A stretch of 64,000 bases of DNA from a virus (IMGVR_UViG_3300037313_000454:33490-97489), one strand, 5' to 3'. Counted from the stretch's first letter, positions 39,991 to 56,415 are shown. Translations and numbers: made by a program. The notes: generated from the sequence alone by a model not told the origin.

Positions 39991-40370
39991 TTGGGGTGAC
40001 AGACGGGGCTTGAACCCGTAACCATCTGTGTCACTTTGTTGTGCACACTGTGCGGGGGTATTGTCCGCCCAGTCTGAATAACAAATGGTAAGGACTTACG
40101 TATTGCCTTACCGCAGTGCTTTACCTCGACTCGCCATAGTAGTAGACGGAATTCTAGCTGGCCAATGCTGCATCACCGGACGCTAACAGTGAACTTCAGG
40201 GAGTGGTTTGAATCTGTTTGCCAAACAATGGGCCGCGTCCTTGACCTACTACTAACTAGTGTCACGGGGCCTTGCACCCCCGCCGACTGCATTTTCAAAG
40301 GTCTTCGCCAGTATACACCTAATTACGCGGTAATGCACCACTCGATGTAAACTGATTAAGCTACTGTCAC
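39991..40370 (-). ncRNA. tRNA-like-bracketed structured RNA (Y-RNA-like family), about 380 nt, CCA encoded
   Basis: 5' GTGACAG at 40364-40370 pairs perfectly with the 3' CTGTCAC that follows T-arm ACGGG-TTCAAGC-CCCGT. Discriminator C and CCA are at 39991-39993, followed by AAGTTTATG. Confidence 0.45.
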
Positions 40371-40378
40371 CATAAACT

Positions 40379-40628
40379 TGGTGTAGGCAGTGGGACTCGA
40401 ACCCACTTACTGCTTTAATCCGCGCTGTTCTATAGAGACTTATTCTAATGCCCATAGGGACTCACATAGTTACGTCTCTATCTACGCATGGCGGGGACGT
40501 TACAACCACGAACTACTCCGAAGAACAGGCTCGAAAGCGTGACTTCAAGGACGAGAGGCCGAAGCGTCTCTAATAGTGCGTGTTTTGTCGTTGTAACCAC
40601 AGTGTTTTAACCTAATAAACTATGCCCA
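40379..40628 (-). ncRNA. tRNA-like-bracketed structured RNA (Y-RNA-like family), about 250 nt, CCA encoded
   Basis: 5' GTGGGCA-TA-GTTT-ATTAGGTTA-AAAC has a D-arm-like start. The 3' end is GTGGG-TTCGAGT-CCCAC-TGCCTAC-A-CCA. The acceptor pairs 7/7 with one G-U. A UUCG-capped hairpin is inside. Followed by AGTTTATG. Confidence 0.45.
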
Positions 40629-40636
40629 CATTTTGG

Positions 40637-42724: not shown

Positions 42725-42869
42725 GGAACTTGGTTCCCACGTTTTCAGACGGCTTTACCAAGGTACGGCAGGCAATAGCCGAACTGATTTGTAACGTCTG
42801 GAAATCGCCATACGGCATTCCCAAGACACGGCGGCTGAAAAAGTCACGGATTGCGTATTTAATCTTCAT
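42633..42869 (-). CDS. hypothetical protein
   Basis: 78-aa ORF. Confidence 0.35.
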   Translation of the reverse strand: MKIKYAIRDFFSRRVLGMPYGDFQTLQISSAIACRTLVKPSENVGTKFHATYHAGRVRQVLKNNFPNLASVYFDNQNY

Positions 42870-43345: not shown

Positions 43346-43354
43346 GACCGTTCC

Positions 43355-43714
43355 TTAAAGTATGGCATTATAAGGCTCGTTTGGGGTGAGGTTTAGAACT
43401 GTGTAAATCAGTTCCGGTTTGAGGGCAAATGGGTACATACCCTTTTGGCAACGTTTGACAGCCATTTCGCGCACATTGTCGTGAATGTCCGTGAGGAGTC
43501 TTTCCCGCTCTTTGTCGGGAAGACGCACGTTTGACTGGTTGGAGAACACAAGGTACTGGAATTTTGTGACCAATCCCTGTGGGAAACCTTCCCAATCTTC
43601 AGGTTTTTCGCTCTTAAGCATGTTGACCACCTGCTGGGCTTCCATGCAAAGGACAGCTTCCTTCTGTTGCCGTTCAAGCGCGAGGAAGGTGCATAAACAT
43701 TGATTTCTTGTCAT
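43355..43714 (-). CDS. hypothetical protein
   Basis: 119-aa ORF. Confidence 0.45.
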   Translation of the reverse strand: MTRNQCLCTFLALERQQKEAVLCMEAQQVVNMLKSEKPEDWEGFPQGLVTKFQYLVFSNQSNVRLPDKERERLLTDIHDNVREMAVKRCQKGMYPFALKPELIYTVLNLTPNEPYNAIL

Positions 43715-43812
43715 GTGATTTTTGTCACTCCATCAGGGGCAGGGTATCTCTACCCCGCCCCCAACTGTCCATCAGCGTAAGGACTTTAAGAATCCAATAG
43801 CCACTCGCCTTA

Positions 43813-45396
43813 CTAGTGACTTTGCTCGAAAGGGACGACTTCTCCGGGGGTGGATGGCTTATCCACTTCAACTTCCTGATAATGCAGCGGCAGTTTACCG
43901 CCATCATCAGTCATGCGTTCCAACTCTTCCAGCCGTTCTTTAGCGCGTTCCTGATAGGCTTCGTCAGCGGCAGCCGCTTGTTTTTCATAGTCAGCGTCCT
44001 CTTCTGGCGTCTCACCACCCGGAACAACGCCATCGCTGCCGTCGTCCGTGCCCATAGAGAAGCACTGCATACACATGAACGTCTTGTCTTGCGTAGCAAC
44101 CACCATGTCAGAGCCTTCGAGAACGTCGCCACACCCGTCACAATCCATCTTCTGGATTTCATCCGACTTGAACAGAGAGGTCACCATCATAACATCTTCC
44201 GGCAACCGATTCAAGCGGTATCCAGCAATGGTGTCAGGATACTGATTGGCACATGCTTCGCAAGCGAACTCGTCATTCTCCATGACATAGTAATAATCGC
44301 CATCGAAGATTTTGATGCCGCAGTAACCGCACGGCCAATTGTCCTTGGAGTGTTGATGACTGATGTCCTTGGCGGCATTTTCAATCATCCTCTTGATGCG
44401 CTCCGTGGAACTCATGTAGCGGTACTGCGCGTCCGACGTTTTGTCTTCGGTTTTAACAAGCGGTCGGTTATCGGTTCCCATAACGACCACTTTGTCGCTG
44501 CTTTGGCCTTGTGAAAGACGGGGCGTCTGGTTAGTCACAAAGTTCTGACCTGTGGTGCTGTCATGCACCCAGCGGCGTTTCTCAACGCCTTCACTGTCCT
44601 TGTAATTTTCCCAGTGCCCATTCACGTTGTCGTTCTTGCTGTTGCCGAGATTGTGCCAATAGGACTCATTCTCCCAGTCCTGCTCGGTGTAAACGCCATA
44701 CGAAGACTTGGAATTGTCCTGCCACGTACCATACTTACGGGTATCGTAGTCGGCAAATTCAAGCTTCATGTCACGGAAAAGGGAGTTGCCTTCCAAGCGA
44801 TAAAGCTGGTTCTCTTTAAGCTTGAACCACACTGCCCCTTTGAGCAGCCCCGCCATACGCAGTGCGACTTCCAGCGAATCTTTCGTGCTGGCGAAAATCC
44901 ATGCATTCTCGGTACGGGCAAGGGTTAACTCGCCCCCATTGAACCGTCCCAGATAGAGCTTATCGTCCTTCCAAAAGACGATTGCACCGTATGCAGAGAT
45001 TTCGGACAACGGACGTTCTTCTGCGATATGGTAGAAGATATGCTCGGAGTCAACTTCACACTTCCGCTCATATTTCTTCTGCAACTCATCGTGATTGCGC
45101 ACGACCCCATTGTGCATCCCCAGTACGTTCTTGATACGGAATGGGTGAGAGTTGTCCTTCACGGTTGCGCCCGTGGTTGGCTGCCGAGTATGGAGGGCAG
45201 CTTGTTTATGTCCAAGGAAAGTAGCGTTCATTCCCTCAGTGATTTCACCGAGAGATTTGATGATTTGCTCCTTTCCATCCGTCCAACCCCAAGATTTCCT
45301 ACCGCGAGTCTCCATATAAATCGCAAGGATGGGGTATGCAATGTTAATCCTGCTGTCGTACTGGTTCCAGCAAGAGTAGCCAGCTATTCCACACAT
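43813..45396 (-). CDS. class II (Ntn) glutamine amidotransferase with C-terminal zinc fingers
   Basis: N-terminal MCGIAG is the Cys nucleophile after Met. C-terminal CxxC...CxxC pairs follow. Confidence 0.6.
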   Translation of the reverse strand: MCGIAGYSCWNQYDSRINIAYPILAIYMETRGRKSWGWTDGKEQIIKSLGEITEGMNATFLGHKQAALHTRQPTTGATVKDNSHPFRIKNVLGMHNGVVRNHDELQKKYERKCEVDSEHIFYHIAEERPLSEISAYGAIVFWKDDKLYLGRFNGGELTLARTENAWIFASTKDSLEVALRMAGLLKGAVWFKLKENQLYRLEGNSLFRDMKLEFADYDTRKYGTWQDNSKSSYGVYTEQDWENESYWHNLGNSKNDNVNGHWENYKDSEGVEKRRWVHDSTTGQNFVTNQTPRLSQGQSSDKVVVMGTDNRPLVKTEDKTSDAQYRYMSSTERIKRMIENAAKDISHQHSKDNWPCGYCGIKIFDGDYYYVMENDEFACEACANQYPDTIAGYRLNRLPEDVMMVTSLFKSDEIQKMDCDGCGDVLEGSDMVVATQDKTFMCMQCFSMGTDDGSDGVVPGGETPEEDADYEKQAAAADEAYQERAKERLEELERMTDDGGKLPLHYQEVEVDKPSTPGEVVPFEQSH

Positions 45397-45408
45397 AATT
45401 GTTCGTCC

Positions 45409-47076
45409 TTAATCGTTCGTATCTAGGGATTGGTGCGCAAAAGCATCTTGTATCATCTGCTTAAAGCGCGGCATTTCATTGTCCTGCTGTTCCCACTTCG
45501 TTTTTGCATATTCTTGCAATTCACGGGGCAGGATAGCAAGTAAAGCTTCTCTCGAATCACGCGGCAACTGTCGAATCTGCTGCTCACTCATCTTGGAAGC
45601 GGCTTCCACTACATGACCGCAGATGAGTGCCCAGTTGACAATCTCGTTGTAATCCGTAGTTCCTTCTTTGTGTCGGAATTCCACCGTACCACGCATGAAG
45701 AAACTATGCAAGTTCAACGCCTTGTAGCGGACATCCTCATACTTATGAGACTTTGTCTTTGCCAACGCCGCGCCAATCTTGCGATATTCCTCTGACTTCT
45801 TTCGTTCGGGAACCATTGCGTACACTGGCGCACCAGTCTCGTCATAGCGAATCAGTTTACGCACTTTCTTGACGGGGAGCTTCTTCTTGTCTTTGCCACG
45901 AGTGTTCTCCGGCAACTTTGCTCCGTCCCGGTACATCTTGCTCAATTGTTCCTTACGGAAATCTTTCGGGTTCGTCTGCTTGGTCAGGTAGAACCTGCCA
46001 CAAGGCCGCGAATAACGGCTTTCCAAGCGGACAGGGTTAACCAAGCCAAACATAGCCTGCTCAACCCTGTAATACAGCATCACCAAACGCCGCAAGTCAT
46101 AATGGGTATATGCCGAACGCTGGTCATACACCATATCGCCTTGCGAGTTAGTGATTACCGTACCATCGTCCTTGACCAATGGAGTTCCTTTGACATTGAT
46201 GTGAACGTGCATACCGCAGGAAGTAGAACAGCCCGCCTTGATGTCAGCCAGACCGTCGCACAGTTCCTTAATATGCGTCAGGAACATATCACCGTTGCAA
46301 GGGTTAGTGTTAATCTCGAAACCGCCTTCATCGAGTGAACCGTCGCGCACCACCGGGTCTTTCCACTTGTTAATGGCGTTGTTGACCTTTGTACTGCGGC
46401 GGTTACGGTCTACTTTATCGACTTCCATCTCGACGGAGATGTGACGGCGCAATGGGTTGCGTTTAAACTGTCCTTTAGCAAATACCGAGTGGAACATCTG
46501 GAATTTGCCGTTGCGGAAGTCAACTCCGGTCATGTTACATGCACAACACCTGTGGCATAGACCACACGGCCTTTCTTCAGTGAAGTCATACCGTAAAGAG
46601 GTATGGAAATTGCTCTCAGACATCTCGGTGTAGCGGCGATTGCACTGTTCACAACGTACACAAGCGCAATGGTCTTTACACTGCTGGCAAGACTGGCAGA
46701 ATCCCCTGCGACTGGTCGTATGCATACTGTTATGCTGACACACAAGCTCTGCGCAGTGATTATGACAATGATGGCAATAGTTGCACCATTCTTCAGTCCG
46801 CTCTTTGTACGTGTTACCTTCAGGACACTTGGGACAAATCCAGCATTTGCAACACTTACCGAGACACAGTAAGCAGTTCTGACATAACACATCACTGCTG
46901 CGGGAAACCATGGTAAGGCAGGCACGACACGCCATACAGTTGCAGCAAGACTCAGCACAACGGCCACAGCCGGGGCACAGTTCTTCTGGTCGATAAGTGA
47001 TGCCGCAATTGCTACACGTACTGCATTCTGTGCATTGCGGTAGCCCACAACCGAGACAGTTTTCAAGTACAGGCAT
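45409..47076 (-). CDS. Cys-rich protein with C-terminal amidoligase-like (GS-fold) domain
   Basis: About 200 aa N-terminal with more than 60 Cys. The C-terminal part has EGGFEINTNP...GMHVHIN, resembling ORF 48604..49491. Confidence 0.4.
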   Translation of the reverse strand: MPVLENCLGCGLPQCTECSTCSNCGITYRPEELCPGCGRCAESCCNCMACRACLTMVSRSSDVLCQNCLLCLGKCCKCWICPKCPEGNTYKERTEEWCNYCHHCHNHCAELVCQHNSMHTTSRRGFCQSCQQCKDHCACVRCEQCNRRYTEMSESNFHTSLRYDFTEERPCGLCHRCCACNMTGVDFRNGKFQMFHSVFAKGQFKRNPLRRHISVEMEVDKVDRNRRSTKVNNAINKWKDPVVRDGSLDEGGFEINTNPCNGDMFLTHIKELCDGLADIKAGCSTSCGMHVHINVKGTPLVKDDGTVITNSQGDMVYDQRSAYTHYDLRRLVMLYYRVEQAMFGLVNPVRLESRYSRPCGRFYLTKQTNPKDFRKEQLSKMYRDGAKLPENTRGKDKKKLPVKKVRKLIRYDETGAPVYAMVPERKKSEEYRKIGAALAKTKSHKYEDVRYKALNLHSFFMRGTVEFRHKEGTTDYNEIVNWALICGHVVEAASKMSEQQIRQLPRDSREALLAILPRELQEYAKTKWEQQDNEMPRFKQMIQDAFAHQSLDTND

Positions 47077-47085
47077 ATCTATCCT

Positions 47086-47322
47086 TTATGCGAAGAGAAC
47101 CCGTTGTTTAATGACTTTTCCATCAGGTAAGGTCGTAATTTTGAGTAACCGATGGTCGCACTGGGTACAACCCTCTAATATCTTGCCGTACACTTCAGCA
47201 AGGCGGCGATTAGGCCACGCATTGGAGTCATTTTCCCAATGTTTGTGCTTCTTGCTCTTACGTTGCCATTGGTAATGAACGGTAGGTTTCATAGAAATCT
47301 TGTGTACAGATGGCGAATACAC
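47086..47322 (-). CDS. hypothetical protein
   Basis: 78-aa ORF. Confidence 0.35.
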   Translation of the reverse strand: MYSPSVHKISMKPTVHYQWQRKSKKHKHWENDSNAWPNRRLAEVYGKILEGCTQCDHRLLKITTLPDGKVIKQRVLFA

Positions 47323-47386
47323 CCGCTGATTTGGGGTATACAGTTACAGACAAACTGTAGGGCTGATGGAAGAATGACGGTTTCGA

Positions 47387-47710
47387 TTACGCACATGCCT
47401 TGTCTTCGACCTCATGGAGACGATGGACGTTAAGGAAAAGTTCCAGTGGATTGTCGGCGCGATAATAGCCGACAGTTTTGCCGTACTGCCGTATGACCTC
47501 ATACCACTTCCCGTCTTCGTCGAACCGGATGTAGCCAAACCACATCTTTTTGGTATGATGATTAGCTACCTTAGACGTATCGTTTTCCAATTCGTCTACC
47601 TTGGCTAAGTCAATCTGCATCTCGGTGCTGTCGAAGATTGTTCCAGCCGTTGGTCGTTTCAAGAACTGGTCAAACGTGTTATCTTCGATAGGTAATGCTT
47701 GGAAACTCAA
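47387..47710 (-). CDS. hypothetical protein
   Basis: 107-aa ORF. Confidence 0.4.
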   Translation of the reverse strand: MSFQALPIEDNTFDQFLKRPTAGTIFDSTEMQIDLAKVDELENDTSKVANHHTKKMWFGYIRFDEDGKWYEVIRQYGKTVGYYRADNPLELFLNVHRLHEVEDKACA

Positions 47711-47730
47711 GGGATTACTCCTGATTGTTG

Positions 47731-47760
47731 GTTATACCGCAACAACTAGTTCTTTGTCAA
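47731..47760 (-). promoter_or_regulatory. sigma70-type promoter, TTGACA-18-TATAAC (minus strand)
   Basis: Reverse complement of 47755-47760 is TTGACA and of 47731-47736 is TATAAC. Confidence 0.4.
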
Positions 47761-48595
47761 GTGAATTCAATAGCGGTTGTTTAGCTAGCTCGAAGGCCGC
47801 TCTAGCCGCTATGTAAGATTTGGTCTGAACTTTGGCACGATGGGTTATACGACCGCGAGTGGAGGAAATAACGTAACCCTCAAAGTTATCTCTCGTCTCT
47901 TCCGCCAAGTTAGTGAAATCCTTGGCGGCATAACAGCGGGGCATAGGAACACGGTATTCGTTAGCCCAACGACGTTGGTCAATCCTAGACCATTCAGACG
48001 AATCCAGCGTGAACGATATCAATACCAGCCCTTGGTAGGGATAATTGACTACTTTCTTAGTCTGTTCAGACAGTATTTCAAAGGTTGGATACGCCGAACG
48101 CGCCCATTTTATACCGTTATCATTAACCCATTTGGTAGCCCATTCTGATACAGGGTCTTCAAATCCACGGCGAGTGACCACGCCATAGTGTGTGCGGTAA
48201 CCGTTGGTGGTGTACTGCCAACCCAATCCCTGCTCACCGTCTACTTTTTCGTATACCTGAACGTAAGACGGGTCTTCTTCTTTCCATTCTTTATAGGTGC
48301 GAAGTGTAGTACAGCGGGATTTTAGCACAGGGTCGTTAACCGCACCGCGAAGCGGGTAGATACGCGATATGGCGCGAGAGATGATGTTATGACGAAGGTC
48401 GCTCTCTTCGCCATGGTACATCAGCATGTCAAACTTATCTAAATGCGGCCCCCACGAGCGGGATTTATCAACCGCTTCCCTGTCAACAACCAACAGAGTC
48501 AGCGGCAGGTTTGGGTGCTTGAATTTCTTGTACCAGCCACTAGCCACATATTGGTCGAGAACGGCTGGGGCGTAAATGTCTTCCAACCAAGGCAT
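47732..48595 (-). CDS. putative ATP-dependent RNA/nucleic-acid ligase (nucleotidyltransferase motifs)
   Basis: Motif I-like EKVDGEQG (KxDG), motif IV-like EGYVISS and motif V-like HRAKVQTK. Confidence 0.4.
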   Translation of the reverse strand: MPWLEDIYAPAVLDQYVASGWYKKFKHPNLPLTLLVVDREAVDKSRSWGPHLDKFDMLMYHGEESDLRHNIISRAISRIYPLRGAVNDPVLKSRCTTLRTYKEWKEEDPSYVQVYEKVDGEQGLGWQYTTNGYRTHYGVVTRRGFEDPVSEWATKWVNDNGIKWARSAYPTFEILSEQTKKVVNYPYQGLVLISFTLDSSEWSRIDQRRWANEYRVPMPRCYAAKDFTNLAEETRDNFEGYVISSTRGRITHRAKVQTKSYIAARAAFELAKQPLLNSLDKELVVAV

Positions 48596-48603
48596 CGTCG
48601 CTC

Positions 48604-49491
48604 CTAAGCGATGTGCTTAAAGTTTTCCCAACGGGGTTTCATGTCTTCGTCGAGACGGGGCGCGAACTTCTCAAGCGTCTCCATCTTGTCGTTCTTGAGG
48701 ATGCGCTTGGCCACCACAGCCGCGTCGAAATCGACGTTCTGGTAAGCCCGGAAGAACTTGACCAGCTTTTGGAACTTAGCTTCCTTCGTTCCCCGCAGCG
48801 GCAGCATCGTCTTGGCGAAGCCGGGATTCAACGCCGCCAACTTGGTCGCCGTGAGCATAATCATGGCGTTGTGCGGGTCAAACAACCAACTGCACGGTGT
48901 GCGGTACTCGGTGCGGTAGAAATGCGTTCCGTCCGCACTTTGCGTCTGTGTGTTTGCAATCGCCGTAGCGCCGAACTGACCGTAACCAGCCGGGTCAGTA
49001 CGCCGTCTGTCAGATTCTTCGCCGGGAAGCAAGTCGATGCTTTCCATGACTTCCGTGATGCGGTCACAGGCGTTCAGCCGCTCATCGAACACCTTGTCGG
49101 GGACACCATGCTTGCCTTTGAACGGCAGTTCCAGATGGATGTGGCCACCAATGGACATGTGACGTGGCGACCGAGAATATTCATCTTCCACCGGGGCGTT
49201 GGTATGTGTCACGACAGACGTGTACGGCACAAACGCTCCACTACGCCAGCGGAACTTACGGAACGGGCGTCCGGTCGGGCTTTCAAGGATGTCCTTGAGT
49301 TCATTGACGATGTCGGACGTGAAGTAACTGGCTGGGGGACGAAGCTCCACGCAATAGCCGCCGTGGTCTGCCCCGAAGCCCGATGAATTCACGTTACCGA
49401 CGGTGATGAGAGTGGTCGGGTTCTGCGGGTCTACCACGCAGAATTCCGGGTCACAACCCACTTTAAACGGGTTGACGTGCATTTTTTGCAT
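48604..49491 (-). CDS. amidoligase-like protein (glutamine-synthetase fold)
   Basis: VGCDPEF, GYCVELRP and GGHIHLELP blocks. Paralogous to the C-terminus of 45409..47076. Confidence 0.4.
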   Translation of the reverse strand: MQKMHVNPFKVGCDPEFCVVDPQNPTTLITVGNVNSSGFGADHGGYCVELRPPASYFTSDIVNELKDILESPTGRPFRKFRWRSGAFVPYTSVVTHTNAPVEDEYSRSPRHMSIGGHIHLELPFKGKHGVPDKVFDERLNACDRITEVMESIDLLPGEESDRRRTDPAGYGQFGATAIANTQTQSADGTHFYRTEYRTPCSWLFDPHNAMIMLTATKLAALNPGFAKTMLPLRGTKEAKFQKLVKFFRAYQNVDFDAAVVAKRILKNDKMETLEKFAPRLDEDMKPRWENFKHIA

Positions 49492-49642
49492 ACGCTGTGT
49501 CCTTTGGGAAAAGGTTTCATTGTCAAGCGGTTAGCCGCTTCGTGAGACACTGAATTCCTCACAATCTTAAACGGTTGCGACCCGTTTTAAAAGAAAGGTG
49601 TACTCTCAGTGACTCACGCAGAGGCTAACTCTGCGCTGGTTG

Positions 49643-50449
49643 TTACTTAACCGGAAGCGTCGGCACTGCATTCCCGCCGACTAGGAACGTACAAGTCGAA
49701 TGCGAACAGGCGTCGCGCTGCATCTTGATTGTCTCAAGGGCAATGTATTGCTGGGGACTCAGTTGCATGGCGACACGATAGGCATTGTCAGCTTCAGCAC
49801 GGCTCAACTCTGCCGCTTTACGCTGGTCTTCAGCCAATTTGCGCTGTTTCTCTGTGTTCACCCGTTGTTCTTGTGCCGCCGTCTCGATACGCTGGCTCTT
49901 GATAGAGTCCGGGGGATTGGCTTTTCCGACCGTGACCTGAATCAGCTTGATAGGCAGACCGGAGTCTCGGATGTACTGTTCCATTGCGCCGGACACTTCA
50001 TTGTCGATGGCTTCAATGGCCGTGGTACTGATAGCGGTTTCGTTCATTCCGTGTTTTCGCACAGCTTGTCGGACACGGTTGCGGAACTCCATCTCCACGT
50101 TTTTGTCATACCACTTGTCACCGAATTTACTGATAAGAGTTACGGAGTCAGTGACTTGCAGTCGGATGATTCCATCGAAGTCCAGTGGTACACCGTCGGA
50201 CGACATCAAGTCGTCGAAGTGTACGGAGAACTGTTGCGGCTGCATGTTCACCACTACCTCTTCTGTGCTGATGGCGATAACCTGCCGACCAGCCTTGACG
50301 GGCTGGGGGTCAACGCCACCGCTGCCGAAGATGTAGGGCTTTTTGATAAGCACCGCTTCATGCCCCGCATCGGGGGCTGAGAATCCACAGCCGATGAGTG
50401 ACAGAGACAGCACCAAGATGAAGGTGAGAGTTGTCAGTGTTTTTGTCAT
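49643..50449 (-). CDS. SPFH/band-7-like lipoprotein
   Basis: Lipobox LSLSLIGC. Central SPFH-like region. C-terminal coiled coil. Confidence 0.45.
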   Translation of the reverse strand: MTKTLTTLTFILVLSLSLIGCGFSAPDAGHEAVLIKKPYIFGSGGVDPQPVKAGRQVIAISTEEVVVNMQPQQFSVHFDDLMSSDGVPLDFDGIIRLQVTDSVTLISKFGDKWYDKNVEMEFRNRVRQAVRKHGMNETAISTTAIEAIDNEVSGAMEQYIRDSGLPIKLIQVTVGKANPPDSIKSQRIETAAQEQRVNTEKQRKLAEDQRKAAELSRAEADNAYRVAMQLSPQQYIALETIKMQRDACSHSTCTFLVGGNAVPTLPVK

Positions 50450-50483
50450 TGTTTTCCTTTTCTACCACAAAATCTTTATTTTG

Positions 50484-50729
50484 TCAAGCTTTTTCTAGAC
50501 CCAGCTTCTTGCGCCTGTTGTGCCACCGCCTAGCCGCCCGTCTAGCGGCTTGTTCATCATAAGGCTTACCTTGGCCTTCTCTATGCTTCGCACACAGGTT
50601 TACGACCACCGTATCCGCAGGCTTACCGTGGTAGATTTCATGCTCACCGTGGAAGATGAACAGGGGTTCGGCGTGAATCTCAGTGCAACGCACTAAGTCT
50701 TCATCTAATGCTTGGCATCTGGTACTCAT
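50484..50729 (-). CDS. hypothetical protein
   Basis: 81-aa ORF. Confidence 0.4.
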   Translation of the reverse strand: MSTRCQALDEDLVRCTEIHAEPLFIFHGEHEIYHGKPADTVVVNLCAKHREGQGKPYDEQAARRAARRWHNRRKKLGLEKA

Positions 50730-50974
50730 GCGGCTGGTTCTCCAAATTCAATAGTGCCATCGTCGTTTATACAGAGCCAAATCTCTTCGTCACCAAAGTC
50801 TAAATGAAGCCACAAACTAGACCGTTCTCCTTTTAGACCGGAGACACGACATAGATGTGGGTTCTGGATGAATTCCCTTAGCGATTTCTTAAACTCTTCC
50901 ATGTTGTTACCATTCAACATGAAACAGGTGTTAGCTTTTGGTTCTATTTTGCCGTAAAAGTGCGTGATTGCCAT
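50726..50974 (-). CDS. hypothetical protein
   Basis: 82 aa. Its ATG is the ATG of the AACTTTATG motif that follows the upstream tRNA-like RNA. Confidence 0.45.
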   Translation of the reverse strand: MAITHFYGKIEPKANTCFMLNGNNMEEFKKSLREFIQNPHLCRVSGLKGERSSLWLHLDFGDEEIWLCINDDGTIEFGEPAA

Positions 50975-50983
50975 AAAGTTATT

Positions 50984-51234
50984 GGGGTGACCGACGGGAA
51001 TTGAACCCGCGTAACGTCGGTAATAAGTAGCTTCCCTGTAATCAGGGACGAAAAGCTGTTTACGGAATGAGCCGGATTAGCACTTGGACATTGTCACAGG
51101 CGTTCACCATGAATCTTGAGCGGTTACTAGCTTTCGGAACTAGTCACTCGGCATTACGGTCTGACCGCATAACTTACTTCTTTTCAACTACTTATGACCG
51201 ATATGTTGTCTTCACCGTTTAAACGACGGTCACC
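50984..51234 (-). ncRNA. tRNA-like-bracketed structured RNA (Y-RNA-like family), about 250 nt, CCA encoded
   Basis: 5' G-GTGACCG at 51227-51234 pairs with the 3' CGGTCAC that follows T-arm GCGGG-TTCAATT-CCCGT. Discriminator C and CCA are at 50984-50986. An extra 5' G faces C73. Confidence 0.45.
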
Positions 51235-51239
51235 ATACC

Positions 51240-51614
51240 TTAATTCGTGAAATGTTGAATGCCCTTGTAAACCCCGTCCGCTATGAGAATGTCATGTTGC
51301 GACAAGTCACGTACCTCACCGACGTAAGCCAGTGCCTCTACAAAAGTATCCCCGACCAAAACTTTGACCGGGACTTTGTGATACCCAATCTCAAGGCGGT
51401 CGATGTAATGCATTGCCTTGTCTGTGACTTCGTAAAGTTCACCCTTTACTTTGTATGAGTCGTATGGTATCGCGGCTGGTACGCCGCCGTAGATAAGGAA
51501 AAGAGCGTAGTTACGAAGGGTGGCTTCCCCTAGGAAGCGGGACTGGGTGAGGGACAGGTACTTGTGATTGGCGTAATGCCGTTTGAGAGTGCCGTAGACA
51601 AAGAGCTTGGTCAT
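51240..51614 (-). CDS. gamma-glutamyl cyclotransferase (AIG2/GGCT-like)
   Basis: N-terminal FVYGTLKR, the YGTL signature. Confidence 0.6.
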   Translation of the reverse strand: MTKLFVYGTLKRHYANHKYLSLTQSRFLGEATLRNYALFLIYGGVPAAIPYDSYKVKGELYEVTDKAMHYIDRLEIGYHKVPVKVLVGDTFVEALAYVGEVRDLSQHDILIADGVYKGIQHFTN

Positions 51615-51694: not shown

Positions 51695-51901
51695 TTAACC
51701 GGGGTAGACGCAATTTATCGCCACAGTGTGTAAGACATCTTTGCCAAAATACTCGTCTTGGCGTGTGACTTCGACTTCGATGCAGTCAACCTTTGTTAGA
51801 ATCTCTTCAACAAGAGCCATTAGCTGTTTTTTAGCCGCTTCATGCTGTTGCTTTCTGCGTTCATCGTCACCGCCGCAGAAGTCATAACTGTCATAAGTCA
51901 T
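51695..51901 (-). CDS. hypothetical protein
   Basis: 68-aa ORF. Confidence 0.35.
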   Translation of the reverse strand: MTYDSYDFCGGDDERRKQQHEAAKKQLMALVEEILTKVDCIEVEVTRQDEYFGKDVLHTVAINCVYPG

Positions 51902-52791
51902 GCGTAGAACTCCAAGTGTACGTCCGCTATCAGCTTCGATATAGCGGCACGGTCTACTTTTTCAGGTAGGGAAGATTTGTCACGGGCTTTCTCAGCCTCA
52001 GCGCGGATTTGCTCACCCATTTCCTGTAGCTCGGTCAGCTTGTACTTACCGCGCCGAATATCTTTTAACACTTCGACTTCAGGCCGGGGATAGGTGATTC
52101 GTCCATCTTCCATCAACTCTTTCGCCTCAGACAGCAGCCGGATGATGTGCATGGCATACTTGGTATCGTAGCCATACAAATCAACGAGCTTATCGCGGTT
52201 GATATTCTTCTGTCCCCTGAGTCCCATGAGGCGTTCCATCTGGTCTTGGGCGTAATAGATGAACGGCCAGTAATGGGACTTGGCAAGGAAAATCAATGTA
52301 TTGTCGAGAATACGTTGCCATGGTTCCAGTACAAGTTTTTCTTCGCCGTCACCGTCACATACAGTACAAGGTTCAACATCATAGGATGTTTCGCCAGCAC
52401 CGTAACAACGGTAGCAAATATCGTTATGCTCTTTTGTGTACTGGAACTCTAAGGTGGAAAACAGGAAGCTGAGGACGGTGGGATTGCCCTTAGCCACCAT
52501 ACCAGCCCACTTCTGCAAACTGTGCAGGGCAATGTCTACTTCGCCCGGTTCGCGTTCACCACGACTACGTTTGGTAGTGTCGCCGGGATAGACGAAATGC
52601 TCGAACGCGTCGATGCCCAGCGTCTTCTCTTTGGGTGGGATGAAGATACCGTAGTAATCGGTGTCGCTCTGACCGCCACAATCATCAGCCCGTGCCCCAT
52701 GTTGCGTGGAGCCGCCGATAAAGGCCATGATGAGATTGTCAGGGTAAGGAAAGCCGTGTTTGGCTAGGATTTCTTGAATGGACATATTCAC
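51898..52791 (-). CDS. Pol-beta-superfamily nucleotidyltransferase
   Basis: GGSTQHGARADDCGGQSDTDYYGIF is the hG[GS]...D.D nucleotidyltransferase signature. C-terminal Cys cluster. Confidence 0.5.
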   Translation of the reverse strand: MNMSIQEILAKHGFPYPDNLIMAFIGGSTQHGARADDCGGQSDTDYYGIFIPPKEKTLGIDAFEHFVYPGDTTKRSRGEREPGEVDIALHSLQKWAGMVAKGNPTVLSFLFSTLEFQYTKEHNDICYRCYGAGETSYDVEPCTVCDGDGEEKLVLEPWQRILDNTLIFLAKSHYWPFIYYAQDQMERLMGLRGQKNINRDKLVDLYGYDTKYAMHIIRLLSEAKELMEDGRITYPRPEVEVLKDIRRGKYKLTELQEMGEQIRAEAEKARDKSSLPEKVDRAAISKLIADVHLEFYA

Positions 52792-53239: not shown

Positions 53240-53327
53240 ATGAGTGCATACTGTGCGGGAACAAACGGGCACGGTGTATTTTCGTAAAAGGAAGTAACCG
53301 AGTCCTTCACCACGCACAGTGAGGTTT

Positions 53328-53651
53328 TTAAAGCCCTGCGGCGGAAATGGAAACGCCAAGCCAATAACCAGCGGCTTGACGGGTGCGCTGCGGCATTTCT
53401 TTGTTCTTGTAGATGTTCTCCAAGACGCGGGTCTTGACCCCCATACCACCATCGACAACGCCAGTGAACTTGTCACTGTTCAGACGGGCTACGGCGATGC
53501 CACGGCCACGTTCTTTGTTAAAGTTGTCAAGGGGATTGCGGGTGGCAACGGCGAACTTGATTTTTCCGTCTTCGAGAAGGGTGGAAGCGACCGCAGCCAC
53601 AGGGTGGCCGTGGAGATTGCGGAGATAGAACAGCTTTACTTTCTGAGGCAT
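53328..53651 (-). CDS. hypothetical protein
   Basis: 107 aa. RBS aacaggag. First gene downstream of the Y-RNA-like array. Confidence 0.45.
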   Translation of the reverse strand: MPQKVKLFYLRNLHGHPVAAVASTLLEDGKIKFAVATRNPLDNFNKERGRGIAVARLNSDKFTGVVDGGMGVKTRVLENIYKNKEMPQRTRQAAGYWLGVSISAAGL

Positions 53652-54553
53652 AGAACTCCTGTTAGCTCTACTTTACAGCTTATGGGATTATTGCCGACGG
53701 GAACAGGCGAAAACGGATATTTTCGTGTGCTACCGTTACACTAACGCCCTACCGATTAGGCAGGACGTATGGGAGTCGAACCCATACCACGTCATCCAGA
53801 GTGAAGTAACCGTTCTCTTCACCACGTCAGCAAACTTTAAGGGCGGGAACAGGCGACAAGGCTCTTTTTGCCGATTGCTCTACCAGACTGAGCTATCTCC
53901 CTCACATTCTTAGGGAGAGTGGGATTCGAACCCACGACCCATCGTTCCGATTGAAGTATTCCTTATCTACACCACGCCCAAACTTTAAGTGAAGGGAACA
54001 TTTGGTAACAGGTATGCCGTGTCCTTTGGCGATTCTTTACCCCTTGCGGGGCGGGGACGGACTCATACCCTTCGCATGTAAGAAGTAACTGTTACACATC
54101 ACCACTTCACAAACTTATGCGTGACCCCGTTATTCAGGCAATCAAAGCCCGATTAAAATGCCAGCACCAAGCCTTTCGACAAGGGGGAGGCCAACATGCG
54201 TTATGGGTTCTAGGGACGATTACTCTCCATACATCGTCACCAAAGGTCACGCTTGGCAGGGCAAGTCATAAGCTTCCTATCCCTGCAAACTTAGCTTAGG
54301 AGAACAAGCGACACGGCACGTTTATTCACCAATTGAAGAAGTATCCGTATCTTTCACTACCTAAGCAGAATTTACTCGGGGCACTCGGATTCAGTTGAGT
54401 CTGAGCTAGGTGAGGTTACGGATTAGCCTAGCTTTTGTAGCTCTTGCACCACCGTAACGATACGGCAAGAGACGTACTTACAGAGTAACTGTCGTCTCGA
54501 ACGCTTTTACACTAGCCCCGAACTTTGAAGTCCCGCAGTGTATCCAGTTGCGC
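53652..54553 (-). ncRNA. tandem array of Y-RNA-like tRNA-mimic modules (at least 4 units)
   Basis: 900-nt ORF-free region. Units are delimited by (T)TAAAGTTTG at about 53831, 53979, 54110 and 54286. Two units carry T-arm (GTGGG-TTCGAAT-CCCAC; ATGGG-TTCGACT-CCCAT) plus 3' acceptor strand, then 8-10 nt, then the complementary 5' acceptor strand plus D-arm (AGGGAGA-TA-GCTC-AGTCTGGTA-GAGC; AGGGCGT-TA-GTGT-AACGGTA-GCAC). Unit ends pair with each other. Confidence 0.5.
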
Positions 54554-54874
54554 TTATGCTCCTGTTTTTTGAGAACCTATTAACGCTGATACATCTGACC
54601 AAGACTTATTATTGCGAAGATGATAGGTGCTGTCTTCACATCCTTCACAATAACTAATCACCTTATTATCTACCAAGATATCTACTTGCTCATTCGTGAC
54701 TATGCGCCATACATAAGGCACAGTCTCGCTGGCAATTACTGCGTCATATGGATATTTATCCCACGGTAATTCAGGAACATATCCTATGACTTTCTCTTTG
54801 TAGATAAGAGGTAGCATTCGTCTGAACATTGTATCGCCACACAAACTTTTATCTGTAGAGGAACAAGCGAACAC
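54554..54874 (-). CDS. hypothetical protein
   Basis: 106-aa ORF between the Rsr-like gene and the ncRNA array. Confidence 0.45.
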   Translation of the reverse strand: MFACSSTDKSLCGDTMFRRMLPLIYKEKVIGYVPELPWDKYPYDAVIASETVPYVWRIVTNEQVDILVDNKVISYCEGCEDSTYHLRNNKSWSDVSALIGSQKTGA

Positions 54875-54999: not shown

Positions 55000-56355
55000 T
55001 TAATCTTCGTTCTCAGTGGCCAGAATGAAGTCTACCACAGCTTCAGACCATCCGTCCACATGCTTCCATTTGCCGTAACCGACGCCATTCTGATAGGCAG
55101 CCACGTTGATAACGTAGCCCTTGTCGGTCAACGGGTTGGACAACGCCTGATGCGACTGCTCATCCGTGAGGATGATAAGGCGGTCATAGCCTTCCTTGTC
55201 CGCAACCAGCTTGGCGCGTTCGGTATACGTACCACCACCGAACTGACGCATGATAGCGTCACGCAAGGCAAATCCACGCCGTGCCGGAACCAGCTTGGCA
55301 TCGTTGGCGAACGTGTACACAACCACGCTCTCGCAAATCTCTCGGAGCAGGATAGCCAATCCGTTCGCAGCGTCGATACGGCTCAACTCCGACTTACTGG
55401 AGATAGCCGAAGTCATCGAACCCGATACGTCAATGAGCAGCACCGTCTTGCCCTTGAGTTTAGGGGCATCGGCCACACACTTGAACATGGCCTCTTCCAA
55501 GTACGGCTCAAACTTGGGTGCATACTTTGCAGCCGAGATGAACCGGAACGGCAACACACGCTCGGTGTTCATGGACTGCAAGCCATCGACAATGACGCGC
55601 TCCTCAACGCCCGACTGAATCATGTTCCGCAGGTTACGGAGCATGGCCAGCGCACCCAGCTTCTTCTCTTGGATGAGGCGAGTGAACGTAGCAGCTTTGT
55701 CTGCACCAGCGGACAGGGCGACTTCCCATGTATCCGGCGACGTAAGTGTGTTCTCGGCCAACATCTTGTACGTCTCGATGCATGGCGCGGTATCTCCGAC
55801 TTCCGGCCCCCAACCCGGAGTACGCTTTTCTTTGCGCGGGTCAGGATGCGTCAAGAACATAACGTCCCGCAGCTTCACAGCCCCATCACGGTTGTACTTG
55901 GCAAGGCTGTAGCGGTTGAACTTGTAGAACGCCCGTGCCAAGCCCTTCTTCACCTGTGCCGAAAGAGGCTGACGGCCATCCTTCCAATAGATGGCAAGGA
56001 ACTCGGTCAGTTCATCGGGACGCTGAATGATGCGCTCCAACGTGTCTGCTACCAACAGACGGGCTTCTTTGCTCCCCCGCGCCAATTCACGGGCAAGGAA
56101 CAGCGGTACGTGACGCAGCTTGAACTTCTCACGCGCCTCTACCGCGACATTAGCCACATCTTGGGGCTTGTTGTTCTTGATAGCCTCAGCCAGCACTTGG
56201 GCGTGGCTTTGGCCGTCGATGTAGAAGCTGTCTTCCCACAGAAGGCAGCACATCACCAACCGACGAAGCTGTTGGAGCGGGTTGATTCGCTTGGCCACCG
56301 CACCCTCATAGGTGCGCGGAGCAGCCGTAGCGATACGTTTATTCAGGGTCGCCAT
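55000..56355 (-). CDS. rsr: Ro60/Rsr ortholog (TROVE domain + von Willebrand A domain)
   Basis: TROVE-like blocks LRRLVMCCLLWEDSFY, PLFLARELA and MLRNLRNMIQSGV. vWA MIDAS motif LLIDVSGSM. 451 aa. Encoded just upstream of the tRNA-mimic RNA array. Confidence 0.7.
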   Translation of the reverse strand: MATLNKRIATAAPRTYEGAVAKRINPLQQLRRLVMCCLLWEDSFYIDGQSHAQVLAEAIKNNKPQDVANVAVEAREKFKLRHVPLFLARELARGSKEARLLVADTLERIIQRPDELTEFLAIYWKDGRQPLSAQVKKGLARAFYKFNRYSLAKYNRDGAVKLRDVMFLTHPDPRKEKRTPGWGPEVGDTAPCIETYKMLAENTLTSPDTWEVALSAGADKAATFTRLIQEKKLGALAMLRNLRNMIQSGVEERVIVDGLQSMNTERVLPFRFISAAKYAPKFEPYLEEAMFKCVADAPKLKGKTVLLIDVSGSMTSAISSKSELSRIDAANGLAILLREICESVVVYTFANDAKLVPARRGFALRDAIMRQFGGGTYTERAKLVADKEGYDRLIILTDEQSHQALSNPLTDKGYVINVAAYQNGVGYGKWKHVDGWSEAVVDFILATENED

Positions 56356-56386: not shown

Positions 56387-56415
56387 ATGATACCACAAAA
56401 AACTCGTTTTGTCAA
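56387..56415 (-). promoter_or_regulatory. sigma70-type promoter, TTGACA-17-TGgTATCAT (minus strand)
   Basis: Reverse complement of 56410-56415 is TTGACA and of 56387-56392 is TATCAT. Followed by an RBS and the rsr-like ATG. Confidence 0.55.

What the first reader, a model, noticed from the sequence alone, without database searches (positions are those of the whole stretch)
50984..51234. Third tRNA-like-bracketed RNA with extra 5' G facing C73, directly upstream of a gene start
Minus strand G-GTGACCG ...(about 220 nt)... GCGGG-TTCAATT-CCCGT-CGGTCAC-C-CCA. The acceptor stem is a perfect 7 bp. The extra 5' G opposite discriminator C resembles the tRNA-His G-1:C73 feature. CCA is encoded. The sequence immediately after CCA is ATAACTTTATG, and that ATG is the start codon of gene 50726..50974. 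This suggests tRNA-like punctuation: RNase P/Z processing would liberate a near-leaderless mRNA.
Basis: seen in the sequence. Interest (0 to 1): 0.6.

Follow-up and report, generated by a model that had tools for sequence, protein, structure and literature searches.

The report
tRNA-His-framed noncoding RNA in phage
A 252-base phage RNA keeps only the two ends of a histidine tRNA and carries about 190 bases of unrecognised folded RNA between them, sits in an RNA-repair operon full of Ro60-binding Y RNAs, and matches no catalogued RNA family.

Summary
On the minus strand, 51234 to 50983, there is G-1, a perfect 7-bp acceptor stem, a canonical T-arm, C73 and an encoded CCA. Eight bases later comes the ATG of an 82-aa ORF. 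Such brackets do not arise by chance: 4 in the window against 0 in 100 shuffles.

The RNA is not a tRNA, a tmRNA or any Rfam family. Its 3' 28-mer matches ordinary bacterial tRNA-His 3' halves. The D-arm is degenerate, and a long helix with a multi-hairpin cargo replaces the anticodon arm.

It lies 3.8 kb downstream of a phage Ro60 gene, on the same strand. The same operon holds an array of YrlA-type Y RNAs, an RlaP nucleotidyltransferase, an RNA-ligase-like gene and amidoligases.

Two siblings (T1, T2) are in the window. One positional counterpart occurs in a related phage, with compensatory acceptor-stem changes. Other Ro60 phages carry about 130-nt Y RNAs in true tRNA topology, and 5 of 6 have the same G-1:C73 pair.

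Best reading: a tRNA-processed, tRNA-scaffolded noncoding RNA of the Ro60/RNA-repair module. Cutting the mRNA ("punctuation") is a by-product. The cargo's function is unknown, because only strain-level variants of T3 exist.

The parts
50983..51234 (-). T3: complete 252-nt tRNA-His-framed RNA, from G-1 to CCA
   Evidence: No ARAGORN or Rfam family covers it.
51227..51234 (-). G-1 plus the acceptor 5' strand GTGACCG. With 50986-50993 it forms an 8-bp helix.
   Evidence: Positions 6:67 and 7:66 covary among T2, T3 and the L116 RNA.
51216..51225 (-). Degenerate D-arm, CGTTTAAACG. It has the stem of T1's D-arm (GTTT/AAAC) but lacks the loop.
   Evidence: In the strain variant, C to T at 51217 gives a G-U pair.
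51209..51215 (-). GGTGAAG. It is identical to the Ro60-motif variant in this phage's own Y RNAs and resembles GNCGAAG.
   Evidence: and PMC4201824. The evidence is weak, because the 8-mer GGYGAAGA occurs 17 times in the window, mostly in coding sequence.
51180..51201 (-). 5' strand of the long helix that stands in the anticodon-arm position. It pairs with 51019-51057.
   Evidence: Minimum-energy and centroid folds and the constrained fold. A to G at 51195 keeps the pair as G-U.
51058..51179 (-). Distal cargo: a multi-hairpin domain that includes the hairpin CTAGTTCCGAAAGCTAG. No known family matches it.
51019..51057 (-). 3' strand of the long helix, plus the hairpin CCCTG-ATTA-CAGGG
50994..51010 (-). 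T-arm, GCGGG-TTCAATT-CCCGT
   Evidence: It matches the T-arm of the Rfam tmRNA and mascRNA models only locally.
50983..50993 (-). Acceptor 3' strand CGGTCAC, C73 and CCA
   Evidence: The 28-mer pattern is that of ordinary bacterial tRNA-His genes.
50975..50982 (-). 8-nt A/U-rich spacer, ATAACTTT, with no Shine-Dalgarno
50726..50974 (-). 82-aa ORF that starts 8 nt after CCA. It is probably a real gene and overlaps the next ORF by ATGA.
   Evidence: An identical 82-aa protein and three distant homologues are in the protein library.
51240..51614 (-). Upstream gene, a GGACT gamma-glutamyl cyclotransferase. Its stop codon lies 5 nt before G-1.
   Evidence: A strain-level gene insertion lies exactly between this gene and T3.
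40379..40630 (-). T1, a 252-nt sibling with U-1:A73, G3:U70, a canonical D-arm and CCA
39992..40371 (-). T2, a 380-nt sibling with G-1:C73 and CCA. It starts 7 nt after T1 and is followed 6 nt later by a 56-aa ORF.
55000..56355 (-). Ro60/TROVE protein gene, 3.8 kb upstream of T3 on the same strand
53693..54110 (-). Tandem YrlA-type Y RNAs just downstream of Ro60: about 54110-53989, 53979-53841 and 53831-53693
   Evidence: Rfam YrlA scores 41.1 and 19.4 bits, both below threshold. nhmmer and the covariance model R1 also hit here.
56387..56415 (-). Strong sigma-70-like promoter match upstream of Ro60. It is the likely start of the transcript that contains T3.
   Evidence: 11 of 12 positions match, with an upstream TG.

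Best explanation
**What T3 is.** T3 is a genuine structured noncoding RNA built on a tRNA-His frame. It keeps only the parts of a tRNA that the processing and charging machinery reads:
- an 8-bp acceptor helix that includes G-1:C73;
- the T-arm;
- the encoded CCA.

The D-arm is vestigial. A long helix of about 20 bp, carrying a multi-hairpin cargo of about 120 nt, replaces the anticodon arm.

**How it is probably made (inferred).** It is transcribed inside the long Ro60 operon. RNase P releases the 5' end and leaves G-1, as it does for bacterial tRNA-His. An endonuclease cut followed by exonuclease trimming back to CCA makes the 3' end. The result would be a stable tRNA-mimic RNA that HisRS, the CCA-adding enzyme and EF-Tu could recognise.

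**Probable role (inferred).** It acts in trans within the phage's Ro60 / Y RNA / RlaP / RNA-ligase module. It would resemble a Y RNA: a tRNA-like handle joined to a cargo that binds a protein or an RNA.

**Side effect.** Excision cuts the polycistronic mRNA and leaves the downstream 82-aa ORF with a leader of 8 nt or less.

**Shown versus inferred.** Shown: the anatomy, non-chance occurrence, genomic context, the paralogue and counterpart relationships, and the link to Y RNAs in tRNA topology. Inferred: processing, charging, and any partnership with Ro60 or the repair enzymes.
For: **Anatomy and significance.**

**A discrete, conserved module.**
- A near-identical strain has an extra gene inserted 3 nt upstream of G-1, and T3 is retained.
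- That strain's T3 differs at 6 positions. Three are unpaired, two become G-U, and one loses a terminal pair. The fold energy is unchanged.

**A small family.**
- T1 and T2 share the architecture: acceptor, D region, a stem in the anticodon position carrying cargo, and a T-arm.
- A related phage (L116-L118) has a 378-nt G|GTGACCA...TGGTCAC|C|CCA RNA at the syntenic place.
- Acceptor pairs 6:67 and 7:66 covary across T2, T3 and the L116 RNA.

**tRNA-His origin.** The 3' 28-mer pattern belongs to canonical tRNA-His genes in 117 of 120 bacterial hits.

**Context.** Ro60, several Y RNAs, RlaP, an RNA-ligase-like gene, Band-7 and amidoligases lie on one strand, with a single strong promoter-like site.

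**Link to Y RNAs.**
- Four other Ro60 phage loci hold six 127-134-nt RNAs with true tRNA topology. A Y module replaces their anticodon arm.
- 21 of their 29 pairs show compensatory changes.
- 5 of the 6 have G-1:C73, against 10 of 324 canonical-size tRNAs in the same collections.
Against: - No homologue of the T3 cargo exists beyond strain level, so there is no covariation support for the internal fold.
- The cores of T1, T2, T3 and the L116 RNA cannot be aligned.
- T3 does not score as a Y RNA. Rfam YrlA gives no hit. The model R1, built here from the tRNA-topology Y RNAs, gives 16 bits (E = 0.14), mostly from the T-arm and acceptor.
- The GGTGAAG motif is frequent in this phage's coding strand.
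- No expression data or transcript ends are available.
- More distant relatives, with Band-7 at or below 70% identity or RlaP near 45%, lack such RNAs.
Confidence: 0.55

Rival explanations
1. Punctuation is the primary function. T3 would exist to be cut out by RNase P and the 3' processing enzymes. That would separate the GGACT mRNA from a near-leaderless mRNA for the 82-aa ORF. The cargo would be incidental.
For: - There are no promoter-like or terminator-like sites around T3.
- The ORFs after tRNA-Leu, T2 and T3 all begin 6-8 nt after CCA without a Shine-Dalgarno. About half of the other genes have a strong one.
Against: - A 75-nt tRNA achieves the same result in this genome, so a 190-nt structured insert that is conserved between strains is left unexplained.
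- T1 abuts T2, not an ORF.
- In L116 the counterpart RNA is followed by a tRNA and then a gene with a 35-nt leader and a Shine-Dalgarno.
- Three ORFs without a Shine-Dalgarno is not statistically unusual, since about half of the genes lack a strong core.
Confidence: 0.15
2. T3 is a decayed tRNA-His gene. An insertion or rearrangement destroyed the D and anticodon arms, and the gene now has no function beyond being tolerated.
For: - The ends are ordinary tRNA-His sequence.
- The D-arm looks like T1's with the loop deleted.
- The region is a hotspot for gene gain and loss between strains.
Against: - Three such RNAs in one genome, plus one in a relative, all keep a perfect 8-bp acceptor, the T-arm and CCA. 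The acceptor shows compensatory changes.
- The insert folds much better than shuffles, with z = -3.7.
- Strain-level substitutions spare the structure.
Confidence: 0.1
3. T3 carries an amino acid. It would be charged with His, and T1 with Ala. The aminoacyl-RNA would then serve as a donor or scaffold for the neighbouring amide-bond enzymes (GATase, Amidoligase_2, COOH-NH2 ligase, a RimK-like ATP-grasp enzyme, GGACT). Alternatively, it would enter the ribosome in the manner of tmRNA.
For: - The identity sets present are the two read from the acceptor end alone: G-1:C73 in T2 and T3, and G3:U70 with A73 in T1. That these two sets suffice for charging is established knowledge of HisRS and AlaRS.
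- The RNAs are interleaved with amidoligase-type genes here, and the L116 RNA lies among the same kinds of gene there.
Against: - No aminoacyl-tRNA-dependent transferase domain was found in the ORFs scanned.
- There is no tag ORF and no tmRNA signal.
- T1's U-1:A73 pairing is common in ordinary tRNA contexts: 110 of 324.
- G-1:C73 may simply be an eighth structural base pair. It covaries to U:A in one tRNA-topology Y RNA.
Confidence: 0.06
4. T3 is a tRNA gene interrupted by a self-splicing or protein-spliced intron.
For: Both tRNA ends are present, with a long insert between them.
Against: - There is no Rfam group I or group II signal, even at E up to 10.
- No anticodon stem-loop or canonical D-arm can be rebuilt from the flanks.
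- ARAGORN, which allows introns, calls nothing here.
Confidence: 0.02

Closest known systems
YrlA-type bacterial and phage Y RNAs (Rfam RF02553; Chen et al. 2014, PMC4201824)
   Same: - Both are noncoding RNAs that mimic tRNA and are encoded within 4 kb of a Ro60 gene on the same strand.
- Both have a T-arm and an acceptor-like helix.
- In both, a long helix emerges where the anticodon arm would be.
- M. smegmatis YrlA is cut by RNase P and receives CCA.
- T3 carries GGUGAAG, the motif variant found in this phage's own Y RNAs.
   Different: - YrlA is circularly permuted: T-arm, then a closed acceptor hairpin, then the D-arm, with its ends in the Ro60-binding stem. T3 has true tRNA topology with open ends and an encoded CCA.
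- T3's D-arm is degenerate.
- T3 shows no recognisable Ro60-binding helix and no YrlA model hit.
Y RNAs in tRNA topology, found here next to Ro60 in IMG/VR loci L064, L068, L070 and L090
   Same: - True tRNA order of elements.
- An 8-bp acceptor with G-1:C73.
- A T-arm.
- CCA is encoded in some members.
- Cargo replaces the anticodon arm.
- All are in Ro60 phages.
   Different: - They are 127-134 nt long, with a canonical D-arm and a conserved Y module (CGCC-UGUUCUCC-GAAA-GGUAGCGAAG ... UUACUUCA).
- T3 is twice as long, and its cargo is unrelated in sequence. The model R1 gives it 16 bits.
tmRNA
   Same: - Both have a tRNA-like domain made of an acceptor, a T-arm and a reduced D region.
- Both continue into a long helix that leads to a distal structured domain.
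- In both, the charging identity lies wholly in the acceptor end.
   Different: - tmRNA has alanine identity (G3:U70), a tag reading frame and pseudoknots.
- T3 has His-type G-1:C73 and no plausible tag ORF.
- Neither ARAGORN nor the Rfam tmRNA model covers T3 beyond the T-arm.
Bacterial tRNA-His
   Same: - G-1:C73.
- The GUGACCG/CGGUCAC acceptor.
- The T-arm.
- The encoded CCA.
- The 3' 28-mer pattern is that of real tRNA-His genes.
   Different: T3 has no anticodon arm and no canonical D-arm. It is 252 nt long rather than 77, so it cannot decode.
tRNA punctuation of polycistronic transcripts, and engineered 'tRNA-scaffold' RNAs (from my own knowledge)
   Same: - A tRNA-shaped element inside an operon would be excised by RNase P and the 3' processing enzymes.
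- Cargo placed in the anticodon arm is how engineered tRNA scaffolds stabilise foreign RNAs.
   Different: Here the arrangement is natural and phage-encoded, and the cargo is unknown. Processing has not been shown.

Membership tests
canonical tRNA | A cloverleaf with an anticodon arm and a D-arm, detectable by ARAGORN or Rfam RF00005 | tested here: not met
   ARAGORN and Rfam find only tRNA-Leu at 31549-31633 in the window. At E up to 10 no tRNA hit falls on T3.
canonical tRNA | A 7-bp acceptor stem, a 5-bp T-stem with a TTCNANN loop, a discriminator base and CCA | tested here: met
tmRNA | Alanine identity, G3:U70 | tested here: not met
   T3 has G3:C70 and G-1:C73. Only T1 has G3:U70.
tmRNA | An internal tag reading frame that ends in a stop codon, detectable by ARAGORN or RF00023 | tested here: not met
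   No plausible tag appears in any of the three frames. ARAGORN finds nothing. RF00023 matches only the 18-nt T-arm, at 13.5 bits against a gathering score of 47.
YrlA / Y RNA | Encoded within about 4 kb of Ro60 on the same strand (criterion of PMC4201824) | tested here: met
   Ro60 is at 55000-56355 on the minus strand, and T3 starts at 51234 on the minus strand, 3.8 kb downstream.
YrlA / Y RNA | A Ro60-contact motif, GNCGAAN0-1G, near the 5' end | tested here: inconclusive
   T3 has GGUGAAG at positions 20-26, identical to the variant in this phage's own Y RNAs. However, GGYGAAGA occurs 17 times in the window, mostly in coding sequence, and no Y-type bulged helix can be drawn around it.
YrlA / Y RNA | Conserved T and D stem-loops in permuted order, scoring with the YrlA covariance model | tested here: not met
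   No RF02553 hit falls on T3 at E up to 10. The Y RNAs next to Ro60 score 41.1 and 19.4 bits.
YrlA / Y RNA | Physical binding to Ro60 | not testable with these tools
   This needs Ro60 immunoprecipitation or a gel-shift assay.
Y RNAs in tRNA topology (L090 type, defined here) | An 8-bp acceptor with a -1:73 pair, a T-arm, and true tRNA order of elements | tested here: met
Y RNAs in tRNA topology (L090 type, defined here) | The Y module (UGUUCUCC-GAAA-GGUAGCGAAG ... UUACUUCA) in the anticodon position, and a significant score with model R1 | tested here: not met
   R1 gives T3 16.1 bits (E = 0.14), T1 12.7 bits and T2 9.9 bits (E = 3.6, T-arm only). True members score 110-132 bits. nhmmer finds no hit on T1-T3.
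intron-containing tRNA | Exons that rebuild a full cloverleaf, and a recognisable group I or group II intron | tested here: not met
tRNA-like punctuation element | A tRNA-shaped element between cistrons of one transcription unit | tested here: met
   GGACT's stop codon is 5 nt upstream and the next ATG is 8 nt downstream. There is no promoter-like or terminator-like site between the one upstream of Ro60 and T3.
tRNA-like punctuation element | Transcript ends that coincide with the tRNA-like boundaries | not testable with these tools
   This needs dRNA-seq or 5'/3' RACE.

The most novel reading that the evidence does not exclude
T1, T2 and T3 may form a set of chargeable tRNA-mimic RNAs, His-type for T2 and T3 and Ala-type for T1. 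Their identity elements lie only in the acceptor end, as in tmRNA. Once aminoacylated, they would act in one of two ways. They could donate or present amino acids to the interleaved phage amidoligase, ATP-grasp and COOH-NH2-ligase enzymes. Or they could engage EF-Tu and the ribosome as a His-charged counterpart of tmRNA. More broadly, Ro60 phages would have turned the tRNA-His frame into a general chassis for noncoding RNAs, including Y RNAs.
Probability: 0.07. Interest if true: 0.9.

Novelty: new variant of a known kind. Interest (0 to 1): 0.6.

Why it matters
**What is new.** Bacterial Y RNAs are known as circularly permuted tRNA mimics with closed acceptor hairpins. This locus shows something different. 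One phage lineage encodes large RNAs (252-380 nt) that keep a complete tRNA-His acceptor and T minihelix with an encoded CCA, and carry unrelated cargoes in the anticodon position. Other Ro60 phages encode Y RNAs in the unpermuted tRNA form with the same G-1:C73 pair.

**What follows if these RNAs are expressed.**
- They would be a natural version of the engineered 'tRNA scaffold'.
- They would tie Ro60 and RNA-repair biology to the tRNA-His processing and charging machinery.
- They would offer new structured RNAs for biochemical study.

**Practical point.** tRNA finders and Rfam miss this class entirely.

Tried and rejected
**Known families.**
- ARAGORN and Rfam, at gathering thresholds and at E up to 10, find no family on T1, T2, T3 or the L116 RNA.
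- tmRNA is rejected. There is no tag ORF, and T3 has no alanine identity.
- An intron-bearing tRNA is rejected.

**Searches for homologues of T3.**
- blastn of the T3 and T1-T2 regions against GenBank phages found nothing.
- The GGACT neighbour has only a 97%-identical relative.
- The 81-aa neighbour has no homologues.
- A 3'-end pattern scan of IMG/VR returned only real tRNA-His genes and prophage att fragments.
- The same kind of scan of bacterial genomes returned only tRNA-His genes.
- Loci of RlaP relatives (23) and of Band-7 relatives (about 95 more) hold no such RNA, except L116-L118.

**A shared core among the siblings.**
- No k-mer motif exceeds chance, and nhmmer finds no cross-hits.
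- My by-eye alignment of T3's hairpin CUAGUUCCGAAAGCUAG to the Y-module apex was not borne out by nhmmer or by the covariance model.

**Other checks.**
- No antisense match of 12 nt or more was found between T1, T2 or T3 and RNAs read from the same (minus) strand of the window.
- T3 has an internal alternative 5' strand (GGTGAACG, giving a 126-nt inner unit). This is close to what chance would give for a 7-of-8 complement.

Full report
**Observation.**
- Read on the minus strand, the region begins with TAA, the stop codon of a GGACT-family gene (51240-51614). Five bases follow, then G(-1) at 51234 and GTGACCG at 51233-51227.
- About 215 bases later come GCGGG-TTCAATT-CCCGT (51010-50994), CGGTCAC (50993-50987), C73 (50986) and CCA (50985-50983).
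- Next is ATAACTTT, then the ATG of ORF 50726..50974.
- I wrote a scan for a strict T-arm followed by a 7-nt acceptor strand, any base and CCA, with a complementary 7-mer (at most one G-U) 100-700 nt upstream. It finds four brackets in the window and none in 100 dinucleotide-preserving shuffles. The fourth is a by-product of the one true tRNA.
- The RNA folds at -78.7 kcal/mol, z = -3.7, and none of 200 shuffles folds as well. The acceptor and T helices appear in both the minimum-energy and the centroid structures.

**What T3 is not.**
- ARAGORN finds only tRNA-Leu(TAG) at 31549-31633. Rfam at gathering thresholds finds only that tRNA.
- At E up to 10, the T3 region gives only an 18-nt T-arm match to the tmRNA model and a chance-level mascRNA match.
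- No frame holds a plausible tag peptide.
- No canonical D-arm or anticodon stem-loop can be rebuilt. So T3 is not a tRNA, a tmRNA or an intron-bearing tRNA.

**Anatomy.**
- After the 8-bp acceptor (G-1:C73 plus 7 pairs) comes a 3-bp/4-nt hairpin, CGUUUAAACG. It looks like the D-arm of the sibling T1 (GUUU-AUUAGGUU-AAAC) with the loop deleted.
- Next comes GGUGAAGAC. Then a long helix (UCGGU/ACCGA, AUAAGUAGUU/..CUACUUAU, GAAAAG/CUUUUC) pairs the region after the D remnant with the region just before the T-arm. That is the position of the anticodon stem.
- The helix carries a distal multi-hairpin domain.
- The 28-nt 3' pattern (T-arm, acceptor strand, CCCA) is that of ordinary bacterial tRNA-His genes. 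In a scan of one genome per species, 117 of the 120 hits returned are canonical-size tRNA-His.
- T3 is therefore a tRNA-His frame that keeps just the parts read by RNase P, the CCA-adding enzyme, HisRS and EF-Tu. That these enzymes read those parts is established knowledge, not tested here.

**Siblings.**
- T1 (40630-40379, 252 nt) has U-1:A73, G3:U70, a canonical D-arm with GG, and CCA.
- T2 (40371-39992, 380 nt) starts 7 nt after T1. It has G-1:C73 and CCA.
- All three have an 8-bp acceptor and a stem in the anticodon position that carries the cargo.
- Their cores share no sequence above chance.

**Context.**
- The window is phage-like. It encodes a primase-helicase, RecA, ribonucleotide reductase, ThyX and a helicase.
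- T3 lies in a long run of minus-strand genes headed by a strong promoter-like site at 56415-56387. No promoter-like or terminator-like site lies near T3.
- The run reads as follows:
  - Ro60/TROVE (55000-56355);
  - a stretch of about 900 nt without ORFs, holding tandem YrlA-type Y RNAs (Rfam YrlA 41.1 and 19.4 bits, below threshold, plus further Y-like units by eye);
  - RlaP nucleotidyltransferase (51898-52791);
  - GGACT;
  - T3;
  - two small ORFs;
  - Band-7;
  - COOH-NH2 ligase;
  - an RNA-ligase-like protein;
  - Amidoligase_2;
  - GATase;
  - a RimK-like ATP-grasp enzyme;
  - a DksA-like protein;
  - T1-T2.
- RlaP and Ro60 are described as RNA-repair components of large phages in PMC7824862.
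- By the criterion of PMC4201824 (same strand, within about 4 kb of Ro60), T3 is a positional Y RNA candidate.

**Variation and relatives.**
- Exact-protein look-ups recovered a near-identical strain, with GGACT 97% identical and the upstream DNA about 99% identical. In that strain another gene sits between GGACT and T3. Homology resumes 3 nt before G-1. T3 therefore behaves as a discrete module.
- That strain's T3 differs at six positions. Three are unpaired, two turn Watson-Crick pairs into G-U, and one opens a terminal pair. The predicted energy is unchanged.
- T1 and T2 are identical in the other assemblies.
- Band-7 proved a useful anchor. The closest relative (75% identity; L116-L118) has the same gene order: TROVE, Y RNAs, GGACT, then Band-7, COOH-NH2 ligase and amidoligase.
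- Just upstream of its Band-7 it has a 378-nt RNA, G|GTGACCA...GCGGG-TTCGACC-CCCGT-TGGTCAC|C|CCA, followed by a tRNA-Cys.
- Across T2, T3 and this RNA, acceptor pairs 6:67 (A:U or C:G) and 7:66 (G:C or A:U) change in a compensatory way. G-1:C73 and pairs 1-5 stay fixed.
- Its first 55 nt or so resemble T2 weakly. Otherwise the cores cannot be aligned, and Rfam sees nothing in them.
- About 95 more Band-7 loci (at or below 70% identity), 23 RlaP loci and the remaining look-ups contain no such RNA.
- The closest cultured phage is Tunturiibacter phage Tunturi_3 (Band-7 52% identical). It also has Y-like and permuted tRNA-like pieces upstream of Band-7.

**Link to Y RNAs.**
- Scanning 57 IMG/VR Ro60 loci with the bracket finder turned up six RNAs of 127-134 nt next to Ro60, in L064 (two), L068, L070 (two) and L090.
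- They have true tRNA topology: an 8-bp acceptor, a canonical D-arm and a T-arm. In place of the anticodon arm is a Y module: a helix, CGCC-UGUUCUCC-GAAA-GGUAGCGAAG, and UUACUUCA.
- This is the circular permutation of YrlA.
- 21 of the 29 predicted pairs show compensatory changes, including the -1:73 pair.
- Five of the six have G-1:C73. Only 10 of 324 distinct canonical-size tRNAs in all fetched loci do.
- T3 is nevertheless not a member of that family by sequence or structure. A covariance model built from the six gives T3 16.1 bits (E = 0.14), mostly from the T-arm and acceptor. True members score 110-132 bits. nhmmer finds nothing.
- T3's GGUGAAG equals the Ro60-motif variant of this phage's own Y RNAs. 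However, the 8-mer is common in the coding strand, and no Y-type helix can be drawn around it.
- Ro60 binding therefore remains a hypothesis.

**Punctuation.**
- Genes in this window usually carry a purine-rich Shine-Dalgarno. Of 50 genes, 26 have a strong core.
- The ORFs after tRNA-Leu (6-nt spacer), T2 (6 nt) and T3 (8 nt) have none.
- The 82-aa ORF looks real. It overlaps the next ORF by ATGA, and an identical protein and three distant homologues are in the protein library.
- But the effect is shared with a plain tRNA, is absent for T1, and is not conserved in L116. There, promoter-like hexamers (read by eye) precede the RNA, and Band-7 has a 35-nt leader with a Shine-Dalgarno.
- I therefore treat punctuation as a consequence and not the purpose.

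**Verdict.**
- T3 is a real feature and very probably a functional, processed noncoding RNA on a tRNA-His chassis. It belongs to a small lineage-specific set (T1, T2, T3 and the L116 RNA).
- It is related in design, and probably in origin, to Ro60-associated Y RNAs.
- The cargo's partner and function are unknown. Only strain-level variants of T3 exist, so the internal fold rests on thermodynamics alone.
- I found no description of such RNAs in the searchable literature.

Noticed in passing
window 53693-54560 (-), also 53240-53330 (-) and 32645-32725 (-): The stretch of about 900 nt downstream of Ro60 has no ORFs and holds a tandem array of Y RNAs. Each has the stem motifs 5' ..CG-UGGUG(A/U)AG..(G/A)UUACUUC and 3' ..C(C/U)UGUUCC-CG... 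Two have permuted tRNA-like modules of the YrlA type. Two further small Y-like units lie at about 53.3 kb and 32.7 kb. In all there may be 6-8 Y RNAs in one phage.
   Followed up: partly
window 40379-40630 (-) and 39992-40371 (-): T1 (Ala-like G3:U70 with A73, and a canonical D-arm) and T2 (His-like G-1:C73, 380 nt) lie in tandem between a DksA-like gene and a 56-aa ORF. Both are built like T3. They are identical in the other assemblies recovered.
   Followed up: partly
L090 9689-9816; L068 2375-2508; L070 7767-7894 and 7901-8032; L064 4973-5102 and 5204-5332: Six Y RNAs next to Ro60 have unpermuted tRNA topology: an 8-bp acceptor, a D-arm, a Y module in place of the anticodon arm, and a T-arm, with CCA in some. 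They show strong covariation, and 5 of 6 have G-1:C73. Rfam's YrlA model describes the permuted form, and I found no description of this form.
   Followed up: partly
L116 5497-5874 (also L117 and L118); L116 3281-3355: A related phage has a 378-nt G-1:C73 bracket RNA at the syntenic site, followed by tRNA-Cys. It contains an internal stretch, ACCAAGUUUUAUGGUGGGCAUAG, that resembles the T1/T2 junction and the 5' end of T1. A separate 75-nt G-1:C73 bracket with no D-arm lies just downstream of its Ro60 gene.
   Followed up: partly
window 51235-51239, compared with L052, L053 and L055: A strain-level gene insertion lies exactly between the GGACT stop codon and T3. The breakpoint is 3 nt upstream of G-1. 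The six substitutions in that strain's T3 all fall in its first 120 nt, next to the breakpoint.
   Followed up: yes
window about 53981-53988, 53832-53840, 32726-32735, 40372-40378 and 39986-39991; L116 about 5485-5495; L213 about 9528-9536: A short motif, (A)AAGUUU(A/G), recurs at the boundaries of the Y RNAs and the T RNAs in this phage and its relatives. It could be a processing or recognition signal, or just the usual intergenic context.
   Followed up: no
window 51098-51109 (-) compared with 51225-51236 (-): T3 contains an internal near-repeat of its own 5' end (AUGGUGAaCGcC against AUGGUGACCGUC). Paired with the 3' acceptor strand, with one mismatch, it would give an inner tRNA-like unit of 126 nt, about the size of the short tRNA-topology Y RNAs. 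It may be a vestige of duplication or simply chance.
   Followed up: partly
window 41514-51614 (-): A dense cluster of amide-bond enzymes is interleaved with the RNA-repair genes and the tRNA-like RNAs: GATase, Amidoligase_2, COOH-NH2 ligase, a RimK-like ATP-grasp enzyme and GGACT. The same pairing occurs in L116.
   Followed up: no
L073 13895-14030 (the same RNA occurs in L075 and L076): A 136-nt bracket RNA (U-1:A73, CCA, no canonical D-arm) contains GGCGAAUG, which matches GNCGAANG. It lies about 5 kb downstream of Ro60 in another phage group. It is another cargo on a tRNA-like frame.
   Followed up: no
L213 (Tunturiibacter phage Tunturi_3) 9190-9900: The unannotated 700 nt upstream of this phage's Band-7 gene holds three things. 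There is a permuted tRNA-like piece (T-arm, acceptor 3' strand and ACCA, then the matching 5' strand 25 nt later). There are Y-type UGUUCC-CGC motifs. And there is a tRNA-like gene with a 4-base anticodon call.
   Followed up: no
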